This document shows, piece after piece, positions 27,867-47,159 of a DNA stretch of 64,000 bases. The notes beneath the pieces are model-generated. The model made no database searches, was not told the origin of the DNA, and worked only from the letters and a program-made list of their open reading frames with translations. A program made the translations under genes and the position numbers. Numbering within the stretch: the first letter of the stretch is position 1; each line of letters starts with the position of its first letter. Origin of the DNA: a virus; the IMG/VR virus record IMGVR_UViG_3300042331_000508, positions 4,537-68,536 of that record; one strand, written 5' to 3'.

Positions 27867-28490
27867 ATGGAAGAAAATGATCACAAGCCCCCAACTTTGG
27901 CCGCCATTGCGGCAGATTGGGGCACCAGCGTTGCCTACGTCTCGCGCATGAAGTCTCAAAAAGGCTGTCCGGTCCATAGTCTGGAGGCAGCCCGAGCTTG
28001 GCGAGCCGAGCGCGCCCGGGGCGGTGTGGGGTTCCGGTCCAAGTTGGTCAGATCAGACGAGCAAGATGCTCCTCCAGTTCGTTTGCCCCGCCGCAAAAGC
28101 CTCAAAGGCATGGAACAAAGTCTGGCAGCGTCAATTGAGATTGAGGAACAGGCCAAGTATCTGGTTGAGGCAGCGATTGCGGCCGATTCGGTAGAAAAGC
28201 TGCCGCTACTCCTCCAGACCTACAACAAGGCGAAGGAAGGTCGCATGGCGTCCGAAAAAATGGTTTTGGAGATTCAAGAGAAAGCGCGGGTCTTGGTCCC
28301 ATTGGATGAAGCCCGAGAGATGTTTGCCAAAGGCTGGGGAGCCCTGCTGGCTCGGCTGCGCGGCCTTCCAACCATTCTGGCCCCCAAGGTCAATCCGCAA
28401 GACGATGTGACTGCGGCAGAGATCATCCGTCAGGACATCGAGAGGGCCATTGCTGATGGCCAGAAAGCCTATGAGCAAGCGCTGGCATGA
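27867..28490 (+). CDS. terS: Terminase small subunit (Nu1-like)
   Basis: N-terminal HTH (LAAIAADWGTSVAYVSRMK..GCP), LVPLDEA, LRGLP..LAP; directly upstream of terL. Confidence 0.8.
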   Translation: MEENDHKPPTLAAIAADWGTSVAYVSRMKSQKGCPVHSLEAARAWRAERARGGVGFRSKLVRSDEQDAPPVRLPRRKSLKGMEQSLAASIEIEEQAKYLVEAAIAADSVEKLPLLLQTYNKAKEGRMASEKMVLEIQEKARVLVPLDEAREMFAKGWGALLARLRGLPTILAPKVNPQDDVTAAEIIRQDIERAIADGQKAYEQALA

Positions 28491-30285
28491 CGAGCCGCTG
28501 AAGAAGCTGGAGGCCTTCTGCAAGGACACCCTTGCTCCAGCCCCAGACTTGCCAGTGTGGAAGTGGTGCGAACAGCATTGCTACATTCGTGGAGACAACG
28601 AGGGCGGGTATTCCACCACCCTGACTCCCTACGTGCGGGAACCCTTGGATTGTTTCAAGGACAAGAAGATCGAGGACTTGGTGCTTTGCTTTGCGGCCCA
28701 AACCGCCAAGACCACCGTTGTCATGGGAGGCACCGCTTGGCTGCTGGTAAACGATGCCAGAGACACCCTTTGGGTTATGCCAGACAAAGAGCTGGGAGGC
28801 TCTTTTTCCAGAAACAGGTGGATTCCGTGGGTCGATGATTGCCGCCCTTTGGCTGACTTGAAGCCATCCAACCGCAATCTGTTCACGACCAGAGAGCAGC
28901 GCTTTGCTCGATGCGCGCTTTTTTTCGTCGGTTCGAACAGCGCCAGCCAGATTTCCTCCCGTCCTTGCGGCGTGGTTCTGATGGATGAGGTCGACAAGTT
29001 CGGCCTTCGCAATGACAGGGAGGCCGGTGCCCTCAAGAATGCCGAGGAGCGGACGAAAAGCTTTAATTTCCCGAAACGTATTAAAACTTCGACCCCTACC
29101 ATTTACTATGGGGAAATCTGGCAAGAGTTTATCAAGGGGGATGCCCGATACTTCTACGTGCCTTGTCCATGCTGCAAGACCCCGATCCGGCTTTTGTGGA
29201 AGCAAATCCGGTGGTGGAAAGATGATCCTGAAGAGGCCAAAACCGATGGGGACTGGGATATGGAAAAAGTGCGAAAGAACACGCACTACGTCTGCCAAGA
29301 GTGCAACCAAAGCTTCACGGATGCCTACAAGACCGGCATGTTGCAGGCTGGTGAGTGGCGCCCGAGCAATCCGCAAGCGGAACCCACCCGCCGCAGCTAC
29401 CATTTGAGTGCGCTCTATGCGCCCTGGAAGCAAACCCGCTGGGGCAACTTGGCTGTTCGATGGCTTCAGAGCAAAGCCACGATCGACGGACGCCAGAATT
29501 TCATCAATTCGACGCTGGCAGAGCCATTCGACGGCGAAAACGCCTACGATGAGGATCCGATAGCCACCGAGGCCTACATACCGGCAGACATCCAGCGCGA
29601 CCGCGTGCCGTTGATGACGGTGGACGTTCAGCAGCCGGGATTTTGGTGTGTGATCCGCGCTTGGGCCAAGTCTGGAGAGAGTTGGTTGCTGCATGCGGGG
29701 TATGTCCACACCATCGAGGAGCTGGACGAGCTGCAAAGGAAGTATGCCGTGGAAGCAAATCACGTGCTGATAGACGTCGCTGACCAAACCAACCTCGTTT
29801 GCAAATGGGTTGTTGATAGAGACTGGCGCGGTGCGTGGGGCAGTAGCAAAAATGGCTTCGTCCACAGCCTGCCCAACGGCAACAAAGTGCAAAAACTGAT
29901 TTCCCCAGTCCAGTGGCGTGATCCGCAGCTCGGAACTGTCCACCAGAGCGAGCGAAACCCCCGCGCCCGCTACGTTTTCTGGGCCAACGACCCCGTGAAA
30001 GACATTTTGGCGGTGATGAGGCATCAAGAGCCCCGCCGCTGGCACGTCCATGGCGATATTCCTCCCGAATACACCAAGCATTTGAACGCCGAGATCAAAA
30101 TCATGCGCCAGAACCCGCGCACCGGCCGTTATCAGGTGGTTTGGAAGCAAGTCCGCCGCGCCAACCACCTTTTAGACTGTGAGGCCATGCAAATCGTCTG
30201 CGCTTTGGCAGGAGGCCTGATTGTGGAGGACAACGAGAAGTATGCCAACGCGCAGGGGGCGCTCAAGCTGCACGAAATGAATTGA
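28471..30285 (+). CDS. terL: Terminase large subunit, lambda GpA family
   Basis: TPYVREPLD, AAQTAKT, LMDEVDK, TSTPT, YVPCPCC, SYHLSALYAPW, TVDVQ, NHLLDCE. Confidence 0.95.
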   Translation: MSKRWHDEPLKKLEAFCKDTLAPAPDLPVWKWCEQHCYIRGDNEGGYSTTLTPYVREPLDCFKDKKIEDLVLCFAAQTAKTTVVMGGTAWLLVNDARDTLWVMPDKELGGSFSRNRWIPWVDDCRPLADLKPSNRNLFTTREQRFARCALFFVGSNSASQISSRPCGVVLMDEVDKFGLRNDREAGALKNAEERTKSFNFPKRIKTSTPTIYYGEIWQEFIKGDARYFYVPCPCCKTPIRLLWKQIRWWKDDPEEAKTDGDWDMEKVRKNTHYVCQECNQSFTDAYKTGMLQAGEWRPSNPQAEPTRRSYHLSALYAPWKQTRWGNLAVRWLQSKATIDGRQNFINSTLAEPFDGENAYDEDPIATEAYIPADIQRDRVPLMTVDVQQPGFWCVIRAWAKSGESWLLHAGYVHTIEELDELQRKYAVEANHVLIDVADQTNLVCKWVVDRDWRGAWGSSKNGFVHSLPNGNKVQKLISPVQWRDPQLGTVHQSERNPRARYVFWANDPVKDILAVMRHQEPRRWHVHGDIPPEYTKHLNAEIKIMRQNPRTGRYQVVWKQVRRANHLLDCEAMQIVCALAGGLIVEDNEKYANAQGALKLHEMN

Positions 30286-30341: not shown

Positions 30342-30998
30342 TCAAGGGTTAGCATGGAAAAACGCTTTGGCAAATCCTAACGGCGTAACAGATCGAATTT
30401 CCTTTGTTTTTTCGCTTTTCCCACCTGTATTCCAGTGTATCGGGCTGTAATTGTCTCCGTTGTAGCAGGTTACACTAACCGGAGCGCAGGGCTTTTTATT
30501 TGGGAACCGAAATTTGCCCCAAAGCCCCGTTTTTTTACGATAGGAATCGTTGGGCGGTATCAAAGGATGCGAATGGGACTTTTGTCCTGGCTCCAACCAC
30601 CCCCCAAATTCATAAGGATGAAAATAGGTGGGGCCATAGAATAGCAAATCGTTGACCAAGCTAGGTAGTCTGCCCACAGGATTTTCAATGACCCACCAAT
30701 GTGGATTGCAGCTGTGAATAATTTGCAGAGTCTTTTGAACTAGCGCGACGCTCTGCGCCGTGCGCCCATCTTGGTCTTTTTGTTTCCAATATTGCGCCCC
30801 GCTCCCCGCAAAATCAGTGCACGGAGGAGCAGCCAGAACTCCATGGACCGGCCCAATGGAGGCAATCCAACGCTGATCAATTTGCAAGATGTCGTGACCG
30901 CGCTTTAAGTCCACGCACACGACATTGTAGCCCGCTTCGGCATAAAAGCTTGGCCAGTTGCCCGTGTAATCAAACAGGGACAAAACGGTGCGCTGCAT
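30342..30998 (-). CDS. DNA cytosine-5 methyltransferase (short phage type)
   Basis: VLSLFD, AAPPCTDF (motif IV PC), WVIENPVGR (motif VI), YRKKTGLWG. Confidence 0.85.
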   Translation of the reverse strand: MQRTVLSLFDYTGNWPSFYAEAGYNVVCVDLKRGHDILQIDQRWIASIGPVHGVLAAPPCTDFAGSGAQYWKQKDQDGRTAQSVALVQKTLQIIHSCNPHWWVIENPVGRLPSLVNDLLFYGPTYFHPYEFGGWLEPGQKSHSHPLIPPNDSYRKKTGLWGKFRFPNKKPCAPVSVTCYNGDNYSPIHWNTGGKSEKTKEIRSVTPLGFAKAFFHANP

Positions 30999-31252
30999 TA
31001 CTCGTCGCCTGTATCAACCTGGTTGGCGATCTTGTCCGTGTCCCAATTAATCAGTCCGGCAAGCACCCATTCTGCCATGGACTGCACAAGCCATTTGTCT
31101 TCAGGCTTTGTGTCGCCCTTGTCTTTGATGATTCGCATCAGATCTTTGACTTTTGGATTGATCTGCTCAAAAAAAACATCGGCAGCCTTTTGGTGCTGCT
31201 TTTGATATTGCGCCTCAATCTTGTCCAGTTGCTTCTTGTAGTTGTTGTTCAT
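30998..31252 (-). CDS. Hypothetical protein
   Basis: 84 aa, coupled. Confidence 0.5.
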   Translation of the reverse strand: MNNNYKKQLDKIEAQYQKQHQKAADVFFEQINPKVKDLMRIIKDKGDTKPEDKWLVQSMAEWVLAGLINWDTDKIANQVDTGDE

Positions 31253-31781
31253 AAAGTCGGTCTAGCTCTTCTTCGTCATCAATACCCAGCTCGTCACGGA
31301 GGGCCTCGGGCGCTTGATCGCGAGGGCTGTAAGTGTTATCGACGCATGTTCCGTCGGGATTGGCAAGAAACTCGCCACAAAAATCATTGCCCGGTTCATC
31401 GAAGGTCAGGCGCAGCGGCTTTTGCACTAGCTTGGACAATGCGGCAATGACAGGAGTAGGAGGCCCCCATGCAGTATTAAATCCAATTCCTTCATCCTGA
31501 ACGTGTCCATCGTATGAGTTCCATTTTGTTCCCCAATGACGGATTCGCCAATCATACCATCCGTCCCCGTTCAGTAAATTTTGAGCCATCGGTATGATTT
31601 TTTGGAAATCCAAAAATGTTTCCGGATATCCGCAATCAGGAGCCAAGCATAGCTCTTCATCGTCGGACAAGGGCACATCGCTGATGAATGGACTTCCACG
31701 CATCTTGGTCGTTAGGTATTGTTCAAACACTGACATATCTCCGTCAGGAGCTTGCAGGTAGTTCCAGCAGTGGTTAGGCAT
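31215..31781 (-). CDS. YubB/DUF1281 ferredoxin-like domain protein
   Basis: MPNHCWN, WYDWRIRHWGTKWN, FNTAWGPP, FDEPGNDFCG. Confidence 0.8.
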   Translation of the reverse strand: MPNHCWNYLQAPDGDMSVFEQYLTTKMRGSPFISDVPLSDDEELCLAPDCGYPETFLDFQKIIPMAQNLLNGDGWYDWRIRHWGTKWNSYDGHVQDEGIGFNTAWGPPTPVIAALSKLVQKPLRLTFDEPGNDFCGEFLANPDGTCVDNTYSPRDQAPEALRDELGIDDEEELDRLYEQQLQEATGQD

Positions 31782-32031
31782 AGGTTGGTATTTGCACCGA
31801 GTGGTGCAGGTCTATTAGTTTAAGGTAGATGGCCAGACGAGTTACGTCGGCCGTGTTACGCGCCCCGAACCGGTCGTGTATCATCTGCCGGAATTTTTCG
31901 ACAGTCTTGACACTGACATCGAGATCAGAAGCGATTTCTTTGTTGGTCTTACCCAAGGCAACAAGTGCGGCTGTTTCAGCCATTCGATCCGTCATAAGCG
32001 GATGAAAACGCGGATTATGAGATATGTTCAT
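31774..32031 (-). CDS. LuxR-type HTH regulator
   Basis: ALGKTNKEIASDLDVSVKTVEKFR..RNTADVTRLA. Confidence 0.8.
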   Translation of the reverse strand: MNISHNPRFHPLMTDRMAETAALVALGKTNKEIASDLDVSVKTVEKFRQMIHDRFGARNTADVTRLAIYLKLIDLHHSVQIPTYA

Positions 32032-32266
32032 TGAACGAAACGCTGTAACCAAGCTGCTCAATAATGTCAGCCACCTCAGGCTCGTCAGCGAAGCCCCGTT
32101 GTATTATTACAGCTTTGTTAGTGTGGTTAATATTGACGATCGTCCCGCTTCGCGGGATAAGCCATGATCCTTTGTCTTTGATGCAAGACATCATCATGCG
32201 CGTCCATTGCTTGGCATTTGCGAGGCCAGCGTCGGTAGTTAGGTCGTAGTTCATGGTTTGTTTCAT
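32015..32266 (-). CDS. Hypothetical protein
   Basis: 83 aa in leftward operon. Confidence 0.5.
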   Translation of the reverse strand: MKQTMNYDLTTDAGLANAKQWTRMMMSCIKDKGSWLIPRSGTIVNINHTNKAVIIQRGFADEPEVADIIEQLGYSVSFNEHIS

Positions 32267-32268
32267 AT

Positions 32269-32874
32269 TCAGAATGCCCAACGATGCTTGACCCAATGTG
32301 TTGTTTCTTCAGATGCAGAACGCAATTGCACTGGGTAGGGAGCATCAGCTCGCTTGGCGACAAGGCCCTCGTAGAGCGATGCGCCAACCGCCCGATTTTC
32401 CGACTGAAGAGTGATGTAGAGTTCATCAATGACCTCAGGGATAAACCCCTCCAAAGTATAGAGGGCGTTCTGAACTGGCGCACCAAACTGCCAAGGCTTC
32501 CAGCTGGGAAGCGCTTTTAAGCGATTTAACAGTAGGGCCTTGCGGTCGGTGTAAGTATCCTTGCGCTGTTTGGGACTGGGAAGGTAGTCAAAGATGACCA
32601 AGCTTCCGCGCCCAAGCTGTAGCCGTCGTTCCAGCGCCTCACAATCCAGCCACTCGGGAACGTCTGCATTGGCAAGAATGTCCAAAACGGGCTTGAAGCA
32701 TTCTTCAATGGAGAGCCTTTCTCCATGTCTGTTATACATGCGGCCGCTGGGAGCGTGGATGATAGCCCGCCACCCATTGAGCTTTGGCTCATACATCCAC
32801 GTCCCAGTTTTTGGTCGCGCCCGCTCCAGCGGCCCGCCGTTAATAGGGCGGGCCGGGTAGGAGGGCATGTCCAT
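32269..32874 (-). CDS. ATP-dependent ligase-like nucleotidyltransferase (adenylation domain only)
   Basis: YEPKLNGWR, YNRHG, LDCE, VIFD, EGLVAKRADAPY, WVKHR. Confidence 0.75.
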   Translation of the reverse strand: MDMPSYPARPINGGPLERARPKTGTWMYEPKLNGWRAIIHAPSGRMYNRHGERLSIEECFKPVLDILANADVPEWLDCEALERRLQLGRGSLVIFDYLPSPKQRKDTYTDRKALLLNRLKALPSWKPWQFGAPVQNALYTLEGFIPEVIDELYITLQSENRAVGASLYEGLVAKRADAPYPVQLRSASEETTHWVKHRWAF

Positions 32875-33545
32875 CAGTCCTTTTTCCTGCCCTTGGTTTT
32901 GACTGCAGCCACAATGGGGCAAATCAGATCGACTGCACGATTCTCATCGACAGTTAGAGCTGTGTGCCTGGCCACATGGAAATCAGCCGTGGGCTTGATT
33001 ACGGATTTTGCCGTTAAGGCATCGCTGGCGCCGTATTTGGTAAAGATTGCCTGCAAGTCTTCAATCAGCTCTTGCGCGCTGTCTTGGGGCAACTTATCGC
33101 CATCGACTTTGAGTTCAAATGATTGCCGGAAAAAGCGCTGCGTGCGCTCTTCCCCCAGTGTCTCGATCAGGTCGGATTCCGCCTTCTCTGTGATGGCCCT
33201 GTATCGGCCTTTGTCGCCAAACGACACCAGCAATGAATTGCCGGAGTTGTCTCGCGCTTCTATGGAAGAGGCAACATCATGCCTTCCGCTGAACAGCTCA
33301 AAATAGTGCTCTTGAGCGCGTCCACGGATTTCGCTTTTTTTGATGTTGGCCGATGCTTCCAAAGCCTCCAACTCTTCGGTTTCGCTGAGAATGTCAGAGA
33401 CAAGCTTAGCGATGTCGCCATCAGGGTCCGGCAAAACAGGATACTCTGTCTTGGTTTTTCCAGACGATTTGCTGGCGATGCCACCGAGGTTGAGCTTCAC
33501 GATGCCCGCCGGTTTTGCCGGGGGCTTTTTGGTTGCTGTAGCCAT
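32874..33545 (-). CDS. Conserved-looking hypothetical phage protein
   Basis: 223 aa, coupled to ligase-like gene. Confidence 0.6.
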   Translation of the reverse strand: MATATKKPPAKPAGIVKLNLGGIASKSSGKTKTEYPVLPDPDGDIAKLVSDILSETEELEALEASANIKKSEIRGRAQEHYFELFSGRHDVASSIEARDNSGNSLLVSFGDKGRYRAITEKAESDLIETLGEERTQRFFRQSFELKVDGDKLPQDSAQELIEDLQAIFTKYGASDALTAKSVIKPTADFHVARHTALTVDENRAVDLICPIVAAVKTKGRKKD

Positions 33546-33578
33546 GGTTGTTAAATGGGGCGAGTGCCCCGAAAGTTT

Positions 33579-33875
33579 TTAATCACCCCTCCATTCTTGC
33601 GCGAACTCCTCTGGCGTCCCGCGCCAAACAAATGGCGGCTCGCAGACAAGATCGGCATGAGCGGTAACGACAACTTCCTCAGACCCTTGCAATCGCATCA
33701 GGAGTTCTTTGTCGTTAACCACATCGCCAATGACGATGTGAGGGTAAGTGATGCGGCCGGTGTGCAGCGGAAAGCCAGATGCTTCTTTTGCCAAGCTTTT
33801 GACGGCCACGGCGTTGAATGGTGTCTCCATCGCAAGGCTGCAGTAATCGGAGAGATCGTTGCTAATTGTGCTCAT
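33579..33875 (-). CDS. Hypothetical protein
   Basis: 98 aa. Confidence 0.5.
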   Translation of the reverse strand: MSTISNDLSDYCSLAMETPFNAVAVKSLAKEASGFPLHTGRITYPHIVIGDVVNDKELLMRLQGSEEVVVTAHADLVCEPPFVWRGTPEEFAQEWRGD

Positions 33876-33878
33876 AGG

Positions 33879-34349
33879 TTAGTAGTTGTTGGTGTTAGAA
33901 AAAGGCCTCTGCTTAGACTTGCCCATGCTGTGCTCGTGGATTGTGCGCTGCACAAATCCAAACGGGAACCTGGATTGGGAGTGTTTGAGAACCCACAAGT
34001 GGTATTGGTTGGCCGTGTCAGTCAGGCGCGACTCGGCCGGATACAGCTCGACCGCCTCGTGTTCCGTCCCAACCAGCATGTTTTTGATGGTTTGAAGCTC
34101 TCGCCAGTCGTGGATTGGCTCCCGATCAATTCTTTTAATCGACAACCAAATCATTTCCGGCCAGCCCTCGGCATACACCTCGGCATCGCGCCGCAACACC
34201 TGATATGTGTCGTTTAAGAATACCTCGCCGCGCGTGCTATCGGCAATGAACTCCAAAGCTTTTTCGCGGGTCAGTTTACCGACCGTCATGACGGCTTGGA
34301 TTGTGTCCTCGTCAGTAGGCTCATACAGAGCCGGTTTGAATGGGGTCAT
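33879..34349 (-). CDS. Conserved phage protein
   Basis: WLSIKR..HDWRELQ.IKN..G.EHEAVELYPAESRL.D.ANQYHLW motif. Confidence 0.7.
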   Translation of the reverse strand: MTPFKPALYEPTDEDTIQAVMTVGKLTREKALEFIADSTRGEVFLNDTYQVLRRDAEVYAEGWPEMIWLSIKRIDREPIHDWRELQTIKNMLVGTEHEAVELYPAESRLTDTANQYHLWVLKHSQSRFPFGFVQRTIHEHSMGKSKQRPFSNTNNY

Positions 34350-34552
34350 AGAGTAGTGCCCTTGGATGGGTGTTTATCGACATGGGTGCGGCAGGCTTGG
34401 CGGATGATTGATTCCAGCTTGTCGAGGGTGTCCGCGCTGACACGGGCGAACTTGTGGTGGCGGGACTTTTTGGCGTGGTCAAGCAGGTAGGCTTTGACCT
34501 TGGAGCGGCAAAGCAGACTGCTACTGATGCGGGTGGTTTCGGTGGTTTCCAT
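34346..34552 (-). CDS. Histone-fold-like small basic protein (68 aa)
   Basis: LLCRSKVKAYL..RVSADTLDKLESIIRQAC..KGTTL resembles short bacterial histones; ATG at 34552. Confidence 0.55.
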   Translation of the reverse strand: METTETTRISSSLLCRSKVKAYLLDHAKKSRHHKFARVSADTLDKLESIIRQACRTHVDKHPSKGTTL

Positions 34553-34574
34553 AAGTTGACAGAGAGAAAATGGT

Positions 34575-34898
34575 ATGGCTTTCAATCCTGCTCCTACTGT
34601 GTTCTTCGGAACGACGTATTCTGAGAACGGAACTGTTATGAGTGTTCCTATCAGCGCGTTTCCAGAGCTTTCGGCGGCAGAAGCCGATGCTGCGACGGGC
34701 GATAGCCGCAAACTTATTTGGGCCTTGATCGACAAGCTCTGCACGACCTATACGAATCTTCCGACTGCAGATCGTCCTTCGAAAATGCGTTTGTCAAAAT
34801 CTTACGGACAGGTTGATCCTGCTACCGGAGCTTTCACGGCGAGCTACAGCATGACCTTCAACCTGACGGCGTCGGGTCTGGAGTTGGCTGACGAGTAA
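34575..34898 (+). CDS. Isolated rightward gene, virion-protein-like
   Basis: 107 aa; FPELSAAEADAATGDSRK; preceded by TTGACA motif. Confidence 0.6.
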   Translation: MAFNPAPTVFFGTTYSENGTVMSVPISAFPELSAAEADAATGDSRKLIWALIDKLCTTYTNLPTADRPSKMRLSKSYGQVDPATGAFTASYSMTFNLTASGLELADE

Positions 34899-35106
34899 AG
34901 TGCGGCCACCGCACCCGAAAGTGCGATGACCGCTGATCAAGCAGACTTAGTCTGTTTGACCTTCCTCCGAGCTGGAGGTTGGCGTGGTCGGAGTTCCGGC
35001 CACAGCTCGCGGACGAGCCGCAATGACAGCACGGCATCTATAGCCAAGGCGATTAGCCTCGACTTAAGACGCTTAGCGTCAGCGTGCTCCCAGGGTCCAT
35101 GGTCGC

Positions 35107-35469
35107 TCATAGAAGGTCGCAGGCGATGTTACGCGCGCTAACCTTCAGCTTGAGGAAAGATTTTTGGAGCTTGATTCCATTGCGGAACCATTGAGCCGGA
35201 ATGTTTTCCACAAAGTCGTCTCCGCCAATGTGGCCGTCTTCGGGTCGGCAGCCATCAGCATAGCACACTTCATGGTAGCCATTAGCCGATTTGAGATCGG
35301 GATCTGTGCAGGCCATGATGTATGCGCCGCTGTCTTTAACCAAATACAAAGTATCAGGCTTGAGCCGCTCGCGGCCGGTGTATGCCTCGCTGCAAGTCTC
35401 GGAGTGAGCCGTTGTGTGTTCGACTATGGCCCGCAACGAGGGGTCGTTAAGGTCAAACAAATATATCAT
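35107..35469 (-). CDS. DUF3085-like protein
   Basis: LYLVKDSGAYIM, YADGCRP, GGDDFVENIP. Confidence 0.7.
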   Translation of the reverse strand: MIYLFDLNDPSLRAIVEHTTAHSETCSEAYTGRERLKPDTLYLVKDSGAYIMACTDPDLKSANGYHEVCYADGCRPEDGHIGGDDFVENIPAQWFRNGIKLQKSFLKLKVSARNIACDLL

Positions 35470-35626
35470 GGCCTAAACCACCTCTTGGCGATTCGCCGAG
35501 CGCGCAGCCAGCGCTGGACGACATTGAGTCGGCGCGGCAGTGCAGGCTTCCACAGCCTCATGTAAAACGAGGCCGGATAGATGTTGTCGCCGTAAGACTC
35601 GCGGACGATTGGAACTTCAGGCAGCC

Positions 35627-35893
35627 TCATTGGATGTGACGACGCGTAAGGTTATACTCAGCGTCTTTCATGAGTTCCATCATTCGCGGCATTTGATTGG
35701 CGAGCGAGTAGTAAGGCTCAAAGATCAGGCCTATTAGTTCCATGTCGGCAGCATTGCTTGGCTCTGACTCAGCGATTTGAGCTTTGGCAAGAGCCAGAGC
35801 CTGACCGACAATATAACGCCCACGCATCGAACCAAACAACTCGATGGCGGCATTTTGACGTTGCTCATGATTGAGCGATGCGTATTTGTTCAT
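35627..35893 (-). CDS. Hypothetical protein
   Basis: 88 aa, coupled. Confidence 0.5.
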   Translation of the reverse strand: MNKYASLNHEQRQNAAIELFGSMRGRYIVGQALALAKAQIAESEPSNAADMELIGLIFEPYYSLANQMPRMMELMKDAEYNLTRRHIQ

Positions 35894-36126
35894 GGTAAAA
35901 ATGAGGGGCCGTAGCCCAAGTAGTAGCGGCCATTAGAGTAGCCGGAATGAAAGCCAGTCTTCGGGTTGTATGTGCCGAAATACGCGCCGCCATCCCTGCC
36001 ACGCCCGGAAAAAAATCCGGATCGCGTGTCGTATTGCCCAAACGAATAGAGGCCGTCGCTAACGGATGAATACATCTGTGCATGGCCGAGGTGAGCCAAG
36101 GCCAACAAGATTGCCAATGCTTTCAT
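35890..36126 (-). CDS. Small secreted Gly/Tyr-rich protein
   Basis: Signal peptide MKALAILLALAHLGHA. Confidence 0.5.
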   Translation of the reverse strand: MKALAILLALAHLGHAQMYSSVSDGLYSFGQYDTRSGFFSGRGRDGGAYFGTYNPKTGFHSGYSNGRYYLGYGPSFLP

Positions 36127-36368
36127 TTGCGCTCCAAGATTTCTATGGCGTCAGCAATAGCCCGCCCGTAGCCGGCCGCACTTTGTGCAAACGCTTCTTT
36201 AAGAACGGCAAGTGCGCTGGCAGTGGCAAGATTGTCCACTACGTAGGCCTCGTTTGTTCTTGAAATTTGCTCGGCCGCAACAGCAAGCCGCTCGACTTGT
36301 TTGACCAAAGCGGGCACCGTGCCCTCAATAAATCGGACTCCCCGATTAGTTGACCAAAAATCAATCAT
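36123..36368 (-). CDS. Hypothetical protein
   Basis: MIDFWSTNRGVRFIEGTVP. Confidence 0.5.
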   Translation of the reverse strand: MIDFWSTNRGVRFIEGTVPALVKQVERLAVAAEQISRTNEAYVVDNLATASALAVLKEAFAQSAAGYGRAIADAIEILERK

Positions 36369-36765
36369 CGTCGGCCTCCGTTTCCCATGTAAGTTGTAGT
36401 GGTTCAGTTGTGCCAGGATAGTCGCGGCGTTCATATTGGTAGTAGTCTACGCGGGCTTCGTTTTTCACGAGGTCGTAGACAACGGTGTCGCCATAGTCGC
36501 TGCCGTCTCCGGCTCCGGAATAGCTGTAGTTGTCCCACGCCCAAGTGTCGATTTCCTGCTCGAATTCGATAACCTTGGCGGGTCGCTGCGGAAAAGCCAC
36601 ATACGCAGACTTTTTCTTGCGCGATTTGCGCGGTTTTTCGTGACATCGAACAGTAAGGTATGACTCATCGCTGCCGCCGCTGAAGTGCAAGGCGATTTGC
36701 TCAACCCGCAGCTTCTTTGCTGTGGCGACGAACCTTCGTGGTAGCGGTTGTGGTTCTATGTTCAT
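36361..36765 (-). CDS. DUF6878-like protein
   Basis: IALHFSGGSDES..G.GDG..YG.TVVYDL. Confidence 0.55.
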   Translation of the reverse strand: MNIEPQPLPRRFVATAKKLRVEQIALHFSGGSDESYLTVRCHEKPRKSRKKKSAYVAFPQRPAKVIEFEQEIDTWAWDNYSYSGAGDGSDYGDTVVYDLVKNEARVDYYQYERRDYPGTTEPLQLTWETEADDD

Positions 36766-37144
36766 TGGTAATGATTAGAGGGTGAATGATGCTTTTTGTT
36801 CCGACCCGCAGCATCCAGTTGGCGGGTTGTTGTGCCAGCGGCAGCAGCCAGTCCTTGGGCGTGGGTATGAACCCGCAGTCCTCAATAACATGCTGTTCTG
36901 CCAGCAGTTTGGTCGGCACTCCGCGCTGTCTTTGTGTAGCGCATCGTGCCGACCTCGGATAAATAACGTGCCCAAATTTGTCACAAGCCCACTGCACGCC
37001 AGCGCTGTGGTGCCGAAGCGCCCGGTGAGTCCAGTCGCCGGTGAATTGCTTGGTTTCGTCAAACCACTCGTGCAACTCGATGTAATCATCGGCATGGCCG
37101 CCATACTTGGCAGCACTGCTTTGAGCGTGTTTGTATGGCGTCAT
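36701..37144 (-). CDS. DUF6915-like His-rich protein
   Basis: HAQSSAAKYGG..DYIELHEWFD, HRALRHHSAG, AEQHVIEDCGFIP. Confidence 0.7.
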   Translation of the reverse strand: MTPYKHAQSSAAKYGGHADDYIELHEWFDETKQFTGDWTHRALRHHSAGVQWACDKFGHVIYPRSARCATQRQRGVPTKLLAEQHVIEDCGFIPTPKDWLLPLAQQPANWMLRVGTKSIIHPLIITNEHRTTTATTKVRRHSKEAAG

Positions 37145-37728
37145 ACACGGGCAATGGCGTCAAGACCGACCTTGTCTAAATCCACGGGATCGCTTCCATC
37201 GGAATTTTTAATTCCCCCGCAAACCCCTTGTGCGGTGTGGCAGAGCTTCATTTTGCCCTTGGGCTGTATCCAGTCCTCAAAGTAGATTGCCCCGTCGTTT
37301 CCTCGGCGAAACGGACATTGAGCCATGCGGGTGGTCTGTCCGTTCTCAATCAGCAACAACATGATTGCTTCCTTGCGATCCGGCCGTTCGCTGGGTGCGC
37401 GCAGTTCGCCTTTGACGTAAGGAGCAAACCACACTTCTTGCACGGTGACAAACCACGGCATGCTTTGTGCCATGAATGCCAATGCCTGCCGCTGGCGCTC
37501 TTTGTCTCCAGGCAAACCAATGACGGCGACACCTATATCTTTAGCTTGTTGCTGCAACGCTTCCGGCAAGTGAGCGACCGCCGTCATTGCAACGGGGTCT
37601 AAAGTCCCCGCTTGCGACAGAATATGCTGGGCAGTCTTTTTAGCCTGCCTGAATGTTCTGAATTTCATCGTTTTCATAGAAAAATCCAAGTAATCCAATT
37701 CTTCGGCCCATACTGCTTGTTGGTTCAT
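37141..37728 (-). CDS. Hypothetical protein
   Basis: 195 aa; EVW..PSERPDRKEA. Confidence 0.55.
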   Translation of the reverse strand: MNQQAVWAEELDYLDFSMKTMKFRTFRQAKKTAQHILSQAGTLDPVAMTAVAHLPEALQQQAKDIGVAVIGLPGDKERQRQALAFMAQSMPWFVTVQEVWFAPYVKGELRAPSERPDRKEAIMLLLIENGQTTRMAQCPFRRGNDGAIYFEDWIQPKGKMKLCHTAQGVCGGIKNSDGSDPVDLDKVGLDAIARV

Positions 37729-38123
37729 TAGTTGGACCGAGTGAGTGTTTCAGTAAGAAAAACAGCACACGTGTTGTTGGTAAGGACCAATACGTAAAAG
37801 CCGTCCGCGGGCGGCGGCGGAAGATGCGGCATGTCAAAATTGCCGCGCCATTCATTGATGTATTCGCGGTTTGCCATGGCCAGCATAATGGGAGTCGGTT
37901 CATCGCCAGGGTCGAATGACTGGCGATACTCATCGACTTCGTCTTGGCCGCGCATGGTATACGCTGCCGTCAGCCCCGTATCGTCATGCAAGTCGCAGAC
38001 CAAGAAGACGGCATCTTTCTGAGATGATGCCTTGAACCGCGCTTCGTTTTTGAAGCGGGTGTAAAGCTCAACTGCCGGTTGCAGTCTAGTAATCGTCTGG
38101 CTCGATAGGTTCGCAGGTTTCAT
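37728..38123 (-). CDS. Hypothetical protein
   Basis: 131 aa. Confidence 0.5.
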   Translation of the reverse strand: MKPANLSSQTITRLQPAVELYTRFKNEARFKASSQKDAVFLVCDLHDDTGLTAAYTMRGQDEVDEYRQSFDPGDEPTPIMLAMANREYINEWRGNFDMPHLPPPPADGFYVLVLTNNTCAVFLTETLTRSN

Positions 38124-38280
38124 AGAAGGGGTTGTAAAGGACTTCTGCCCGATAACATTTGAGGCGTTCGTCGTGACACTTGGAGCAAGTGCCGGTCAGG
38201 TAAATGCCGCGCGCATCGTATTGGGCCTCGCCGGTAAGCCCGCTTCCACAGGAGCAAGGAATGGAGTTGAGCGTGGTCAT
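38086..38280 (-). CDS. Small Zn-finger-like protein
   Basis: CSCGSG..YDARGIYL..CSKC. Confidence 0.55.
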   Translation of the reverse strand: MTTLNSIPCSCGSGLTGEAQYDARGIYLTGTCSKCHDERLKCYRAEVLYNPFYETCEPIEPDDY

Positions 38281-38492
38281 AGTTCGTATGAGTAAGAAGC
38301 GTCAAGTTCCTCCACGTAAGAACGCATGGAGGAGTTAAGCTGTGTTTGATCTTCGGCGAAATGCATCGCCCTGATCAGCCCGTCAGCATCAGACGGGACG
38401 TAGGTGCTGATAATGCGAAACCCGAGCAATCGGCTTCCGGCGTAGGCCAAGGCAAACCCCAGCCAGATACGTAGTTCGTGTAGCAGTGTCAT
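38277..38492 (-). CDS. Hypothetical protein
   Basis: 71 aa, coupled. Confidence 0.45.
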   Translation of the reverse strand: MTLLHELRIWLGFALAYAGSRLLGFRIISTYVPSDADGLIRAMHFAEDQTQLNSSMRSYVEELDASYSYEL

Positions 38493-40519
38493 TTGGAAAG
38501 AACGCGGGTGACGAACGAGACAAGCATCGGAACAATCTTGTCAGCATCATCCCAGCTAACACTGACGAAGCGACCCTTGCCAAACGATCGCTCGCCGTTG
38601 CGACCGCCGATAACAATGCCATACACCTCGATGCTCATGCGTCGGCACAGATCGACGATTTCTTTGAGCTTTTGGATGTCGGTTTCGCCATCACCGATAC
38701 AGATCATGATTTTGCGCGGCGCCTTGTCGATGGAGTCCATGTGCTTGGCCGCCGCAGCAAGAGCGATATCCTCTTTTGTGCCTCCACCCATGCAGTCGAT
38801 CGTCACTTGTGGCGTAGAGCCGTAGTAGTGCACATCGTTGCTGTGTCCATAAGAATGGACACGCACGGCATTACCTCCACGCCGCAGCGCCTCCGAGAGC
38901 AGGCAAGCCGCCCTCTTGAGCGGGACAGAAGCAGTCTGATGCTGAAGCGCCTTGAGGCGCTCGACGCGCTCTGCCACGGTGATGTTGACATCGGGGTCAG
39001 CCCAAGTGCCGCGATCCAAGTCACAGCCGGTCGATCCGCTCAAGTCGGTCAGGATACCAATGGCGATTTCGCGGGACTCGGTAACAACATCGTTACGGTA
39101 AAACACGGATGTTTCACCGCACGGGATTTCCCACAGCTTGCCAGGATCCAAGTGACCGCTTTGGCGGCCGAAGCTCGGCGTGATTTCATCATGGCTGTAA
39201 ATTCGACACAGCTGCGACAGCCGGTCGATGACGCCTTCGTAACCTCGCAAGAGAGCCTGCACCGCCATTTGTGCGTGCACCGGAGTGCGGCTTGACCAGT
39301 CACTGAAGTGAGTTTTCTTGGCGCGAGTGGCCAGTTTGCCACCAGCCTTGCTGGAATCATCTTGGTCTGCCAAGTCACTTACGTCGTGCGCCCTGCCGTC
39401 AATATCTCCTAGCGCTGTATCGTTGGTAATGCTCTCCCCCGAGATGTCAGAGGTGCCGATTCTGCCGCGCGCCTTATCAAGCAAATCTTTGCTTGGCTTG
39501 GGCCGCGCCGGAGGAGGAGGTTGCGGCGCTCCGTCACCACTACCGCTGCCACTTCCGCCTTGCGGGTTTGGCTGCGGCTGTTTCTTGGGTGGCGGTTTAG
39601 GCGGATCAAGCTTGCGCAAGATTTCCGCTGCGCGCTGGGCAGCAGCCCACCGCTCGTGCGATGTAGTGGCAGAGCCAAACTCCGCCATCGCTTGCCCGAT
39701 CACTTCCGCGATATCTTGCGGTGCAACAATAGGCTTGCTGGGATGCAGGATGTTCCATGCCATGGCCGCCGCCGCACATTGCGATGGCGGCGGGCCTTGT
39801 GGCATGTCATCGGGAACCACTACGCCATTGCTGGGACTCGGAGCCGCCTTGACAAGCCCCGCCTCGATCTCGGCACGATAAGACTCGTCCGAGTTAAATG
39901 CGTTGGAGGCCGCAAAATATACGGCCGCCCCGCGATAGTCTGTTAACAGCTCACTTTGCGCAATGTCAGCCTCGACGGCCGACCAGACAACACGAGCGTG
40001 TTTGTCTGTGCTTGCGGCCGCCGCTTGGCGCACCGCTTTGGCGGTGGTGCGTTTCTTGGCCGCCGCGGTCAGCGCTTCGCCGACAAGTGCATCGCTGCGC
40101 TTGTCTTCGTTCCACTCGGCGCGGGCGTCACCACGAGTGATGGTGTCGGGCGACAAGACAACGAGATCATCGTCGTTTGTCGCGTTCCCATCCGACCATG
40201 CCACCTTGAGCGTTTTGTCCACGCCTGTGACGGATGTGCGGATTGCGTTGGTGGACCGCGCTACTGCGGCCAGTGCCGTCTCCAGCTTGTCGGCTGTAGA
40301 AGACCGCTTTTTACGTGAGCTGTAGCCACCCCAATAATTACGCAAGTGTGAGGAAGCGGAATACTTCGACTTGCTGTATTCATCGGAGTCAAAGAGATAG
40401 TCGTCAGACCAGTCAGACCATCCCTTGTCGTCGTAGGAGTATTTTTCAGAACGCTCACGCCTAGCCTTGTCGGCTCCTTGTGCACGTTGCTTGTAATAGT
40501 CCAGATAGCTATTAGCCAT
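38489..40519 (-). CDS. vWA-domain protein (CobT/NorD-like partner)
   Basis: SGHLDPGKL, LTDLSGS (MIDAS), GGT, IGDGE; Pro-rich linker. Confidence 0.8.
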   Translation of the reverse strand: MANSYLDYYKQRAQGADKARRERSEKYSYDDKGWSDWSDDYLFDSDEYSKSKYSASSHLRNYWGGYSSRKKRSSTADKLETALAAVARSTNAIRTSVTGVDKTLKVAWSDGNATNDDDLVVLSPDTITRGDARAEWNEDKRSDALVGEALTAAAKKRTTAKAVRQAAAASTDKHARVVWSAVEADIAQSELLTDYRGAAVYFAASNAFNSDESYRAEIEAGLVKAAPSPSNGVVVPDDMPQGPPPSQCAAAAMAWNILHPSKPIVAPQDIAEVIGQAMAEFGSATTSHERWAAAQRAAEILRKLDPPKPPPKKQPQPNPQGGSGSGSGDGAPQPPPPARPKPSKDLLDKARGRIGTSDISGESITNDTALGDIDGRAHDVSDLADQDDSSKAGGKLATRAKKTHFSDWSSRTPVHAQMAVQALLRGYEGVIDRLSQLCRIYSHDEITPSFGRQSGHLDPGKLWEIPCGETSVFYRNDVVTESREIAIGILTDLSGSTGCDLDRGTWADPDVNITVAERVERLKALQHQTASVPLKRAACLLSEALRRGGNAVRVHSYGHSNDVHYYGSTPQVTIDCMGGGTKEDIALAAAAKHMDSIDKAPRKIMICIGDGETDIQKLKEIVDLCRRMSIEVYGIVIGGRNGERSFGKGRFVSVSWDDADKIVPMLVSFVTRVLSK

Positions 40520-40576
40520 GTTTGATGTTTGCCCGATGCCTGCAAGCAGGCGATCCGGTCGGGCGCCGGATTTGCA

Positions 40577-41581
40577 TTACAGCCCGCAGGTGAGCTGTAT
40601 GGTTTGCAAGACCTGTGCTCGCTCGGAGGACTCGCCCCCTTCGGTGTCGAACTTCGGAACAACGGTGAAGTTCATCGCTTGGCCCGGCGTCATGCCCATG
40701 GCAATGAGCCAGCCAGCAGCGAGGAGCTGCCTTGTCGAGACCGCTTTGGACAATGTCCCGCCGAAGCCGCTGGCCTTGGCACGAATTGTCTCGGCGACAG
40801 TGGCCAATGCATTGGCATCGGCGGTCTTGATACCGCACCGATCGCTGAGCAGTTTGGACTCCTCCTTGCGGGTGAGGTAGTTGACCTCCAGGTGATACGG
40901 GAACCGCGACTCCAGCGCTTCGTCCAGCCGGTATGTGCCGGTGAATTGGGCGCCGATGTTGGCAGTGCCGATAAACGTGACGTTATCGGCAACACGGACA
41001 ATGCGCTGCAGACCCTCGACGTGAACTTCTTTGCGATGGTCGAGCAGCGGCATGAGTGCATTCCATACCGGAGGAGTGGCGCGGTTCACTTCGTCAAGAA
41101 GTATGACAGCACCGGGTGTCTCAATGGCGCGAACAAATTCGCTCGGCGCGAAGAAGGTTTGGCCATTGGCCACACCCTTCTCACCGAAGATGTCGATAGG
41201 TTCGCGATAGAGCACGAGGTTGAACTCGAAAAACGGCGCGCGGCCGATTGCCGAGGTGTAGCGGGCAAGATCCGTCTTGCCGCAACCGGCGGGGCCGGTC
41301 AGCAGCACGTTGCGGATTTTGCCATTGGGTATCTTGAGCACTGCTTCGAGCAGCGTCTTGGCGATGTCCGACACGACAAAGGTCTTGTCGATGTCGGGAA
41401 CAACGAGCAGTTGCGCGTTAGCAGACGCCGCGGCAACACGACCGAGGCGCACGGCCTCGGTCAGTTCGTCACGGGTTGCTTGAACGCGCCACGCTCCATT
41501 GCCGATACCAAGCTGTTTGACCAGCTTGCGGAGTTGCGCGACATTGAGTGCATCAATGTCGGGCAGCGTGGTTGTGTCCAT
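40577..41581 (-). CDS. MoxR-type AAA+ ATPase (CobS/CbbQ/NorQ-like)
   Basis: GPAGCGKT, LLDEVNRA, TANIGAQFTGTYRLDEALESRF, STRQL. Confidence 0.9.
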   Translation of the reverse strand: MDTTTLPDIDALNVAQLRKLVKQLGIGNGAWRVQATRDELTEAVRLGRVAAASANAQLLVVPDIDKTFVVSDIAKTLLEAVLKIPNGKIRNVLLTGPAGCGKTDLARYTSAIGRAPFFEFNLVLYREPIDIFGEKGVANGQTFFAPSEFVRAIETPGAVILLDEVNRATPPVWNALMPLLDHRKEVHVEGLQRIVRVADNVTFIGTANIGAQFTGTYRLDEALESRFPYHLEVNYLTRKEESKLLSDRCGIKTADANALATVAETIRAKASGFGGTLSKAVSTRQLLAAGWLIAMGMTPGQAMNFTVVPKFDTEGGESSERAQVLQTIQLTCGL

Positions 41582-41907
41582 CAGTTGTTGGTGAAGGGGC
41601 GCAGCTCTTCCGAGACTTCGCCCAAAGCGGCTTTGAATCCGCGCGCAGCCAATGCTTGATGCGTTTGACACATCGAGACAATGAGCTTGATGGCGTGGGC
41701 TGCCTTGCGGACAGCTTCATCGCCCTCGCGCGGACTGAAGGCAAACACAGCGAGTTGCAAAACATAACGAGGAAGGGACGCTTCATCGAAAGCCCCCCTG
41801 TCGATCATGGCTTGCACCAGCCCGCTGTCATCAGGGAACATCTCGTTGAACTTGTTCAGCGCGAGTTCCGCCATTTCATCCATCATGGCTTCAGTGGGTA
41901 GTTCCAT
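41581..41907 (-). CDS. Hypothetical protein
   Basis: MELPTEAMM.., coupled to ATPase. Confidence 0.5.
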   Translation of the reverse strand: MELPTEAMMDEMAELALNKFNEMFPDDSGLVQAMIDRGAFDEASLPRYVLQLAVFAFSPREGDEAVRKAAHAIKLIVSMCQTHQALAARGFKAALGEVSEELRPFTNN

Positions 41908-42033
41908 TGTTGGTTTGTGGGTTGCGTCGGTTCTTCCGACAAAAAATTGGTGGGCCGCCTCGCCCCACCGCGAGACGGCCCTGTGCAAACGCAGCGATTG
42001 CTGCGGCCCATGCACAAAAAAATCAAAAAATTC

Positions 42034-42912: not shown

Positions 42913-43014
42913 GCGAACTGGCGCCACACGGCGCGATTGACAAGCAGATCGAACGGACGCCAGGTCAGCAAAGACCAAGGCTTGCGGATGGGATGTTTGC
43001 CCTTGCGCGGAAGG

Positions 43015-47149: not shown

Positions 47150-47159
47150 TGATTAGAGC

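What the first reader, a model, noticed from the sequence alone, without database searches (positions are those of the whole stretch)
34346..34552. Phage-encoded histone-fold-like protein
Seen: a 68-aa basic protein hidden inside a longer ORF call, with helix 1 LLCRSKVKAYLLDHAKK, loop RVS, helix 2 ADTLDKLESIIRQACRTHVDK, then KGTTL and no helix 3. Known: short bacterial histones such as Bdellovibrio Bd0055 show a SKVK..SAET..L..RKTV pattern, and archaeal histones have RVS in loop 1. Inference: a truncated-type histone that coats phage or host DNA.
Basis: partly seen in the sequence, partly recalled or inferred. Interest (0 to 1): 0.7.

Follow-up and report, generated by a model that had tools for sequence, protein, structure and literature searches.

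The report
Minimal two-helix histone-fold protein of a phage
A lake-water phage encodes a tiny, very basic protein that looks like a stripped-down relative of the short histones recently found in archaea and bacteria, and it belongs to a sizeable unnamed family carried by phages and mobile islands.

Summary
Window 34346-34552 (minus strand) encodes a 68-aa protein (pI 9.9). It is conserved at that length in relatives and is under purifying selection (dN/dS 0.10-0.32). The 132-aa ORF around it is an artefact.

It belongs to an unannotated family: 161 clusters at 50% identity, median pI 10.4, and no Pfam match. A core-only family profile hits one solved protein in the PDB, the alpha3-truncated archaeal histone HTkC (E 3.1e-5, nearly full length).

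AlphaFold models of two members (pLDDT 88.9 and 95.6) show helix-loop-helix plus an extended tail. Their best structural matches are HTkC, HLp and HBb/Bd0055 (Z 4.7-5.6, rmsd 1.8-2.0 A, 18-31% identity) and other histone folds. A homodimer model scores 0.65 against 0.00 for controls, with handshake-like contacts.

Differences from known short histones:
- There is no alpha3 at all; half the family ends at G-K-T-L/I.
- The Arg-Asp clamp is missing.
- Loop 1 is six residues longer.

Relatives sit on phages and on tRNA-integrated islands of Verrucomicrobiota, next to the integrase.

DNA binding is inferred, not shown. Phage-encoded alpha3-type histone folds are already in print, so this is a new variant of a known kind.

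The parts
34346..34552 (-). Gene for the 68-aa basic histone-fold-like protein (P0001), stop codon included
   Evidence: Translation. Same-length homologues. dN/dS 0.10-0.32. pI 9.93.
34508..34552 (-). Residues 1-15: Thr/Glu/Ser-rich N-terminal tail (lower pLDDT) ending in L14-C15
   Evidence: pLDDT 67 for residues 1-10. The Met-Glu-Thr-rich start is shared with the 45%-identical island subfamily. Residues 13-15 touch their counterparts in the dimer model.
34463..34507 (-). Residues 16-30: helix alpha1, beginning R-S-K-V-K
   Evidence: DSSP H16-30. Aligned to the K-S-K-V-K start of HTkC.
34436..34462 (-). Residues 31-39: loop L1 (R31, F35, R37, V38 nearly invariant), six residues longer than in HTkC, ending in R-V-S
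   Evidence: Conservation. Six-residue gap in the HTkC alignment. Residues 30-39 lie in the dimer interface.
34376..34435 (-). Residues 40-59: helix alpha2, the dimerisation helix
   Evidence: DSSP H40-59. Self-contacts 49-49 and 50-50, plus 46-53/54/57, in the dimer model.
34349..34375 (-). Residues 60-68: L2-like extended tail K-H-P-S-K-G-T-T-L. The protein ends here, with no alpha3.
   Evidence: No helix after residue 59. P62, S63, G65 and T67 are nearly invariant. 76 of 150 family representatives end at this motif and 38 have one more residue.
34553..34744 (-). Upstream part of the 132-aa ORF: not part of the gene
   Evidence: Not present in homologues. Overlaps the conserved plus-strand gene 34575-34898.
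33879..34349 (-). Downstream 156-aa gene (DUF7694). Its ATG overlaps the stop of the histone-like gene (ATGA, 34346-34349).
   Evidence: ORF list and sequence. Pfam DUF7694 E 1.8e-15. Replaced by an unrelated gene in relative L001, so it is not a conserved partner.
34575..34898 (+). Divergent 107-aa gene of unknown function, 22 bp from the start codon of the histone-like gene
   Evidence: Conserved beside the histone-like gene in L001-L004 at 35-55% identity.

Best explanation
The gene encodes a minimal histone-fold protein of the alpha3-truncated type, reduced to alpha1, a long loop L1, alpha2 and an extended L2-like tail, with no alpha3. Two chains are predicted to pair antiparallel through alpha2 (the histone handshake). 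This places L1 of one chain beside the L2 tail of the other, and puts the basic N-terminal ends of the two alpha1 helices on one face. By analogy with HBb, HLp and HTkC, that face would bind the DNA backbone without sequence preference and bend or compact the DNA. The protein would then act as a small architectural protein that phages and integrative islands bring with them. Shown here: the gene is real and conserved; the sequence and predicted fold are related to solved alpha3 histones; a dimer model passes its controls. Inferred: DNA binding, bending or coating, and which DNA (phage or host) is the target.
For: - Sequence: a core-only family profile (A4, 89 sequences) finds one protein at E<1 among 177,635 distinct PDB sequences. 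That protein is HTkC (9f2c_A): E 3.1e-5, 27.4 bits, profile positions 4-58 against chain residues 4-53. S-K-V-K, R-V-S and G-(R)-K-T are in register. The wider profiles A1 and A2 gave the same single hit at E 0.02 and 0.0017. The paper that solved 9F2C calls HTkC a face-to-face alpha3 histone (PMC11390915, passages read).
- Structure: the AF2 model of P0001 has pLDDT 88.9. Its top all-against-all matches are 9f2c_A (Z 5.2, rmsd 1.9 A, 52 aligned, 25% id), 9qt0_A HLp (Z 4.8, rmsd 2.0 A, 50 aligned, 28% id) and 8cmp_A HBb (Z 4.7, rmsd 1.9 A, 50 aligned, 30% id), among TAF and nucleosomal histone folds.
- Replicate with a 58-aa member: P0143 has pLDDT 95.6. All of the top 16 rows are histone-fold entries, with HTkC Z 5.6, rmsd 1.8 A, 52 aligned, 31% id.
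- Dimer: score 0.65 in three runs against 0.00 for the best of 3 controls. The runs agree in 100% of contacts and the partner's pLDDT is at least 77. In calibration the mark was reached by 20 of 30 proteins solved as pairs and 1 of 23 solved as single chains; these counts hold only roughly, because my own alignment was used. Contacts are 49-49, 50-50, 46-53/54/57 (alpha2 crossing) and 54/58 with 19-27 (alpha2 on the partner's alpha1). Residues 30-39 and 63-68 lie in the interface.
- Charge: median pI is 10.4, and 147 of 150 representatives have pI >9.
- Conserved loop residues R31, R37, S63, G65 and T67 fall where the HBb paper places DNA contacts: N22, S24, K52 and T53, plus T8, S9, K10 and K12 at the start of alpha1 (PMC11317129, passages).
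Against: - The Z scores of 4.7-5.6 are below the level (about 8) at which the tool says a match stands on its own.
- Foldseek found nothing in the PDB or in BFVD.
- None of 150 family members matches any Pfam histone family at E<=0.1.
- The Arg-Asp clamp described for HBb (R51-D58) and HLp (R55-D62) has no counterpart. Depending on how the HTkC alignment is read, the Arg is either skipped or replaced by the invariant Gly65, and the chain ends before the Asp position.
- This copy has Thr, not Lys, at the K of the K-T motif.
- The dimer pass may reflect the model's memory of solved histone dimers.
- No experiment or DNA-complex model was run.
Confidence: 0.6

Rival explanations
1. It is a histone-fold protein that no longer binds DNA. 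It would serve as a small protein-protein adaptor, as TAF-type or DUF1931-type histone folds do, for example recruiting or blocking a host or phage factor.
For: TAF4/TAF12 and TAFII18/28 rank alongside the true histones in both structure searches. The clamp Arg and Asp are lost, and in this copy so is the Lys of K-T. Schwab et al. note that some prokaryotic histone-fold categories lack DNA-binding residues (PMC11390915, passage).
Against: The family is uniformly very basic: 147 of 150 have pI >9. The residues that stay nearly invariant sit in L1 and L2 (R31, R37, S63, G65, T67), where histones touch DNA. The alpha1 start S/R-K-V-K is kept.
Confidence: 0.15
2. It is a DNA-bending cofactor for a specific DNA transaction (site-specific recombination, replication-origin or promoter architecture), like IHF or an excisionase, rather than a general DNA-coating protein.
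For: In Verrucomicrobiota MAGs the 45%-identical subfamily lies directly downstream of a tyrosine-integrase-like gene, at the tRNA-proximal end of an integrated island. An integrase homologue lies within the flank in 25 of the 37 loci compared, L009 itself included. HBb is reported to bend DNA like HU/IHF (PMC11390915, passage).
Against: No integrase turned up among the 63 window ORFs scanned. Here the gene sits among unrelated small accessory genes. The gene downstream of it differs between close relatives. No repeated binding-site motif was looked for or found.
Confidence: 0.15
3. The likeness to histones is convergent. It would be an unrelated helix-loop-helix protein whose two helices happen to superpose on half a histone fold.
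For: A two-helix monomer is a very common arrangement. Z is about 5 only. Foldseek and the Pfam histone models are silent.
Against: A sequence-only profile search singles out an alpha3 histone over nearly its whole length at E 3.1e-5. The next hit is at E 1. The three solved alpha3 histones are the matches with the highest identity, 18-31%. The dimer model has histone-like contacts.
Confidence: 0.1

Closest known systems
HTkC of Thermococcus kodakarensis (PDB 9F2C), a face-to-face alpha3-truncated histone (Schwab et al. 2024, PMC11390915)
   Same: It is the only significant sequence match in the PDB (E 3.1e-5) and the best structural match (Z 5.2 and 5.6). It has about the same size (59 aa) and shares the S-K-V-K start of alpha1, R-V-S entering alpha2 and G-x-K-T after alpha2.
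   Different: HTkC keeps a short alpha3 and the RxT...D motif, and forms a torus-shaped tetramer. The phage protein ends at T-L, lacks the Arg and the Asp, and has six extra residues in L1. The position aligned to the tetramerisation Arg is not conserved (my reading of the alignment). Tetramer formation was not tested.
HBb (Bd0055) of Bdellovibrio bacteriovorus (PDB 8CMP), 'bacterial dimer' alpha3 histone
   Same: Structural match at Z 4.7-5.1, rmsd 1.8-1.9 A over 50 residues, 18-30% identity. It is a dimer. It has a basic alpha1 start and L1/L2 Ser/Thr/Lys contacts to the DNA backbone.
   Different: HBb has a single-turn alpha3 and the R51-D58 clamp, helped by D49. It is a chromosomal, highly expressed protein of the cell. 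No HMMER hit between the family profile and HBb at E<=10.
HLp of Leptospira perolatii (PDB 9QT0), tetrameric DNA-wrapping bacterial histone (PMC12701072)
   Same: Structural match at Z 4.8-5.3, rmsd 1.9-2.0 A over 50 residues, 26-28% identity.
   Different: HLp has the R55-D62 clamp and a tetramer interface. Neither is seen here.
'Phage histones' category of Schwab et al. 2024 (example A0A2E7QIQ9)
   Same: An alpha3-type histone fold on tailed-phage or prophage DNA that lacks the RxTxxxD motif.
   Different: Those proteins carry a C-terminal helical tetramerisation domain. 114 of 150 members of the present family end within one residue of the L2 motif. No sequences were at hand for a direct comparison.
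Viral histone-fold proteins of Caudoviricetes in Liu et al. 2025 (PMC13681535): VHHHFP, BBVHFP, VFFHFP, VTTHFP
   Same: Phage-encoded alpha3-type folds without the long C-terminal helix (VHHHFP), or Bd0055-like dimers (BBVHFP), are described there (section 9 read).
   Different: VHHHFPs are described with conserved K8, K9, K47 and R48 and a 7-residue flexible loop after the fold. BBVHFPs have a C-terminal helix. Neither description fits P-S-K-G-K-T-L at the very end. Their sequence lists are in supplements I could not open, so overlap with this family cannot be excluded.

Membership tests
alpha3-truncated histones (Schwab et al. 2024) | Histone fold alpha1-L1-alpha2-L2 with alpha3 cut to 3-4 residues | tested here: inconclusive
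   alpha1 (16-30), L1, alpha2 (40-59) and an L2-like tail are predicted. There is no helical alpha3 at all, and 76 of 150 members end at the L2 motif. The truncation goes further than the definition.
alpha3-truncated histones (Schwab et al. 2024) | Detectable sequence relationship to members of the family | tested here: met
   Family profile against PDB sequences: HTkC is the only hit below E 1, at E 3.1e-5 over profile positions 4-58 of 60.
alpha3-truncated histones (Schwab et al. 2024) | Handshake homodimer | tested here: met
   Model only: score 0.65 against 0.00 for the best of 3 controls, with alpha2-alpha2 crossing at residues 49/50 and L1 and L2 in the interface. The pass may owe something to solved histone dimers.
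alpha3-truncated histones (Schwab et al. 2024) | RxTxxxxD motif (Arg-Asp clamp around L2) | tested here: not met
   The consensus is P-S-K-G-K-T-L/I followed by the chain end. There is no Asp, and Gly stands where the Arg would be. The paper's own 'phage histones' category also lacks the motif.
'Phage histones' of Schwab et al. 2024 | C-terminal alpha-helical tetramerisation domain after the histone fold | tested here: not met
   The protein ends at residue 68, right after L2. 114 of 150 representatives have 0 or 1 residue after the motif.
Pfam CBFD_NFYB_HMF (PF00808) and other Pfam histone families | Match to the family HMM | tested here: not met
   0 of 150 members match any histone family at E<=0.1. 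P0001 has none at E<=1. The language-model search gave only a weak lead: the rank-27 cluster, score 0.87, with 17% of members carrying PF00808.
Bacterial dimer histones (HBb type) | K-T motif in L2 and basic or hydroxyl residues at the start of alpha1 that contact DNA | tested here: inconclusive
   The family consensus keeps K-T (K66-T67), and S/R-K-V-K starts alpha1. This copy reads T66-T67, with K64 two residues earlier. The residue roles are taken from HBb paper passages.
Any DNA-binding histone | Binds double-stranded DNA | not testable with these tools
   No DNA-complex prediction or experiment was available. Supported only by charge and conserved loop residues.

The most novel reading that the evidence does not exclude
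This is the smallest natural histone-fold lineage so far: two helices, with a core of about 58 aa, no alpha3 and no Arg-Asp clamp. It would be a lineage that lives only on mobile DNA (tailed phages and tRNA-integrating islands) and is sporadic in cellular genomes. The elements would express it on entry to wrap or bend their own DNA. This could shield that DNA from host nucleases, or organise it for replication and recombination. Alternatively the protein could smother the host nucleoid.
Probability: 0.15. Interest if true: 0.75.

Novelty: new variant of a known kind. Interest (0 to 1): 0.5.

Why it matters
Short alpha3-truncated histones in bacteria and archaea were recognised only in 2023-2025, and their phage versions are known only from surveys built on existing histone profiles. 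This family is missed by Pfam's histone models, yet it is large: 161 clusters at 50% identity.

It shows how far the fold can be cut down and still keep the handshake interface and the L1/L2 residues. It also ties such proteins to mobile elements rather than to chromosomes.

If DNA binding is confirmed, the family offers a 58-68-aa model for the minimal requirements of histone-DNA interaction. It would also give a starting point for asking what phages gain by bringing their own chromatin protein.

Tried and rejected
- Pfam and PHROGs on the protein and its neighbours: nothing for the protein itself.
- Foldseek against the PDB and BFVD: no match with E<=0.001. I attribute this to the open two-helix monomer and do not take it as evidence against the fold.
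- blastn of window 32000-37000 against GenBank phages: no match.
The narrower A1 worked, but it biases the cellular hits to one subfamily.
- PF00808 search in one Verrucomicrobiota genome: no match. It did ring in three archaeal controls, but no loci were returned for these, so I had no histone alignment for a profile-profile comparison.
- The family was not found in the 200 other genomes sampled from that phylum. I read this as sporadic, mobile-element distribution, not as absence.
- Promoter and terminator scan of 33400-35700: no more sites than in shuffles.
- RNA evidence: the one metatranscriptome run holds a single 166-nt contig, at 34597-34762. That is on the neighbouring plus-strand gene, not on the histone-like gene, so it says nothing about the histone-like gene's expression.
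- DUF7694 as a partner was rejected, because the downstream gene differs in close relatives.

Full report
**The observation**

It sits inside a longer GTG-started ORF of 132 aa, 34346-34744.

The short form is the gene:
- The eight closest database relatives are 67-69 aa and start with the same Met-Glu-Thr-rich N-terminus.
- The upstream part of the long ORF overlaps a plus-strand gene (34575-34898) that is itself conserved next to the histone-like gene in four related viral contigs.
- In relative L001 the frame is open for only eight more codons, and these are unrelated.

The stop codon overlaps the ATG of the next minus-strand gene (ATGA at 34346-34349).

Among five close copies (the window and L001-L004), all 10 pairwise dN/dS values over the last 60 codons are 0.10-0.32. 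The frame is therefore under purifying selection.

The protein has pI 9.93 and net charge +6.9.

The record holding the window is a 68,536-bp virus genome with direct terminal repeats. It encodes a gpA-type large terminase at 28450-30285 and a lambda-type portal at 51912-53648. It also has primase-like genes at 25160-27555 and a tail-fibre-like protein. 'Phage-encoded' is correct.

**The family**

No Pfam or PHROGs model matches the protein.

A full HMMER scan of 1.84 billion cluster representatives found 161 clusters at E<=1e-3, matching query residues ~11-68. A profile search of the 90% clusters found 505 proteins at E<=1e-3. None of the 120 listed carries a Pfam domain or an informative name. 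Scanned one by one, 0 of 150 representatives match any Pfam histone family at E<=0.1.

The consensus of the core is L-I-N-R-x-x-V-K/R ... R-x-H-K-F-T-R-V-S ... P-S-K-G-K-T-L/I. Ten positions are nearly invariant: L24, A27, R31, F35, R37, V38, P62, S63, G65 and T67.

Family properties:
- Median pI is 10.4, and 147 of 150 representatives have pI >9.
- 76 of 150 end exactly at the G-K-T-L/I motif.
- 38 have one more residue.

**Relationship to histones**

Sequence. I searched family profiles against the 177,635 distinct PDB sequences.

| Profile | Hit | E-value |
|---|---|---|
| A1 (20 sequences) | 9f2c_A | 0.02 |
| A2 (150 sequences) | 9f2c_A | 0.0017 |
| A4 (89 naturally short members, core only) | 9f2c_A | 3.1e-5 (27.4 bits) |

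The A4 alignment runs from profile position 4 to 58 of 60 and covers chain residues 4-53 of 59. The next hit is at E 1. According to the paper that solved it, 9F2C is HTkC of Thermococcus kodakarensis, a face-to-face member of the alpha3-truncated histones (PMC11390915, passages read). The alignment puts S-K-V-K at the start of alpha1, R-V-S before alpha2 and G-(R)-K-T after alpha2 in register. It also needs a six-residue insertion in loop L1 of the phage family.

Structure. The AlphaFold2 model of the window protein, built with the 150-sequence alignment, has mean pLDDT 88.9. Helices are at 16-30 and 40-59, and 60-68 is non-helical.

Foldseek found nothing in the PDB or in BFVD.

The all-against-all VIA search of 48,161 chains gave these matches for the two modelled family members:

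| Chain | P0001 model | P0143 model, 58 aa, pLDDT 95.6 |
|---|---|---|
| 9f2c_A (HTkC) | Z 5.2, rmsd 1.9 A, 52 aligned, 25% id | Z 5.6, rmsd 1.8 A, 52 aligned, 31% id |
| 9qt0_A (HLp) | Z 4.8, rmsd 2.0 A, 50 aligned, 28% id | Z 5.3, rmsd 1.9 A, 50 aligned, 26% id |
| 8cmp_A (HBb/Bd0055) | Z 4.7, rmsd 1.9 A, 50 aligned, 30% id | Z 5.1, rmsd 1.8 A, 50 aligned, 18% id |

For P0001, HTkC ranks first, with TAF4/TAF12 and nucleosomal H3/H4-type chains in between. For P0143, the top 16 rows are all histone-fold entries.

These Z values are low in absolute terms. The tool warns that Z under 8 may mean only a common arrangement. What carries weight is the composition of the list, together with the fact that the three solved alpha3 histones are the matches with the highest sequence identity.

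The language-model atlas search adds only a weak lead: the rank-27 cluster, score 0.87, in which 17% of members carry PF00808.

Dimer. Two copies, folded with the family alignment, scored 0.65 in each of three runs. The best of three controls scored 0.00. The runs agree in 100% of contacts, and the partner's pLDDT is at least 77. In the tool's calibration, 20 of 30 proteins solved as pairs and 1 of 23 solved as single chains reach this mark. These counts hold only roughly here, because my own alignment was used.

The contacts are those of a histone handshake:
- alpha2 crosses its partner at residues 49/50, with 46 against 53, 54 and 57.
- The C-terminal half of alpha2 (54, 58) lies on the partner's alpha1 (19-27).
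- L1 (30-39) and the tail (63-68) are in the interface.

Because histone dimers have been solved, this pass may partly be memory. It shows likeness, not binding.

**How it differs**

- Relative to HTkC, HBb and HLp, the protein has no alpha3 at all and ends at the residue after the L2 Thr.
- It lacks the Arg-Asp clamp (R51-D58 in HBb, R55-D62 in HLp). The invariant Gly65 stands at or next to the Arg position.
- It has a longer L1 with its own conserved residues (R31, H33, K34, F35).
- The window copy also has Thr instead of Lys at the K of the K-T motif, with K64 nearby.
- Relative to the 'phage histones' of Schwab et al., it lacks the C-terminal tetramerisation helix.

Liu et al. 2025 describe several Caudoviricetes histone-fold clusters found with the Schwab profiles (section 9 read). 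Their descriptions of VHHHFP and BBVHFP do not fit this family's C-terminus. Their sequence lists are in supplements that I could not open, so overlap cannot be excluded.

**Context**

In the window, the gene lies in an 18-kb minus-strand block of small genes between the terminase and the portal modules. Recognisable neighbours are:
- DUF7694, DUF3085, DUF6915, DUF2958 and a DUF1281_C domain protein.
- A MoxR-type AAA ATPase.
- A weak ligase-like protein.

From memory, several of these DUFs are common in early or leading regions of phages and plasmids. No call tested that.

The downstream, stop-start-overlapping gene is not a conserved partner. It is replaced by unrelated genes in L001 and L005. 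L005, a 54-kb viral contig, holds two paralogues.

A scan of one genome per species with the narrow alignment A1 returned 32 loci. By their record titles, 28 of the 32 are from the Verrucomicrobiota lineage. The pattern used targets one subfamily, so this does not give the host range of the whole family.

There, the 45%-identical protein lies just downstream of a tyrosine-integrase-like gene (Pfam Phage_integrase, E 6.4e-6, just under the cut-off). It faces a 99-aa gene and a 1206-aa SNF2/ResIII helicase-like gene.

The island boundary lies just upstream of the integrase:
- Similarity between two copies in one genome starts there, at 92.8% identity over integrase plus histone-like gene.
- tRNA-Ser or tRNA-Cys genes lie beside it in three of four loci checked.

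In a sample of 200 other genomes of that phylum, the family was not found. This fits a sporadic, mobile distribution rather than a chromosomal nucleoid protein.

The phage stretch 33500-35500 is held almost whole (0.89 of the sampled words or more) by 23 lake-water metagenome runs, 10 of them marked as possible sources of this DNA. The one RNA run holds only a 166-nt contig, on the neighbouring 107-aa gene.

**Mechanism and verdict**

The best-supported reading is a minimal, alpha3-less histone-fold protein. It would dimerise by the handshake and present two symmetric L1/L2' sites (R37, S39, S63, K64, T67), together with the basic alpha1 N-termini (R16, S17, K18, K20), to the DNA backbone. It would then bend or compact DNA without sequence preference, as reported for HBb.

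That the conserved L1 Arg and L2 Thr correspond to the Arg-Thr pair of archaeal and eukaryotic histone DNA sites is my recollection and was not tested here.

My confidence by step:
- It is a true relative of alpha3 histones: about 0.85.
- It binds DNA: about 0.65.
- Whether it coats phage DNA, remodels the host nucleoid or serves a specific transaction such as recombination is open.

Phage-encoded alpha3-type folds are already in print. This is therefore a new variant of a known kind, of moderate interest.

Noticed in passing
window 34575-34898 (+): A 107-aa gene of unknown function lies head-to-head with the histone-like gene, with only 22 bp between the start codons, inside an otherwise minus-strand block. 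It is conserved in L001-L004 (35-55% identity). The only RNA-library contig on the stretch (166 nt, 34597-34762) lies on it. The atlas finds only unnamed clusters, viral and Cyanobacteriota-labelled.
   Followed up: partly
L009 2400-8200; L019, L013, L008: Verrucomicrobiota MAGs carry an integrated island with the order tRNA (Ser or Cys), tyrosine-integrase-like gene, histone-like gene, 99-aa gene, 1206-aa SNF2/ResIII helicase-like gene. Two copies in one genome are 92.8% identical over integrase plus histone-like gene.
   Followed up: partly
L014 and L015 (same contig): Two 8.2-kb stretches holding the island end are 100% identical and in opposite orientation on one MAG contig. This is either a recent inverted duplication or an assembly artefact.
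   Followed up: no
L005 3935-4183 and 7285-7518: One 54-kb viral contig encodes two paralogues of the histone-like protein, each followed by an overlapping small acidic gene.
   Followed up: no
window 34508-34552 (residues 1-15): The Met-Glu-Thr-Thr-Glu-rich N-terminal tail is shared by the phage subfamily and the 45%-identical island subfamily, but is absent from most of the wider family. Cys15, conserved in these two subfamilies, touches Cys15 of the partner in the dimer model. No explanation.
   Followed up: no
window 30342-48375 (-): An 18-kb leftward block of some 30 small genes separates the terminase (28450-30285) from the portal (51912-53648). It includes DUF7694, DUF3085, DUF6915, DUF2958, a DUF1281_C protein and a MoxR/CbbQ-type AAA ATPase (40577-41671) next to a 676-aa protein with no match.
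   Followed up: partly
window 48774-51306 (+): The phage encodes a family-9 glycosyltransferase-like protein (heptosyltransferase type, E 8.6e-16) and an FkbM-type methyltransferase-like protein just before the portal gene.
   Followed up: no
window 33500-35500: The stretch is held nearly whole (0.89-1.00 of sampled words) by 23 lake-water metagenome runs dated 2020-2025, 10 of them marked as possible sources. Two runs that were laid differ from the window at only 2-3 positions in 2 kb.
   Followed up: partly
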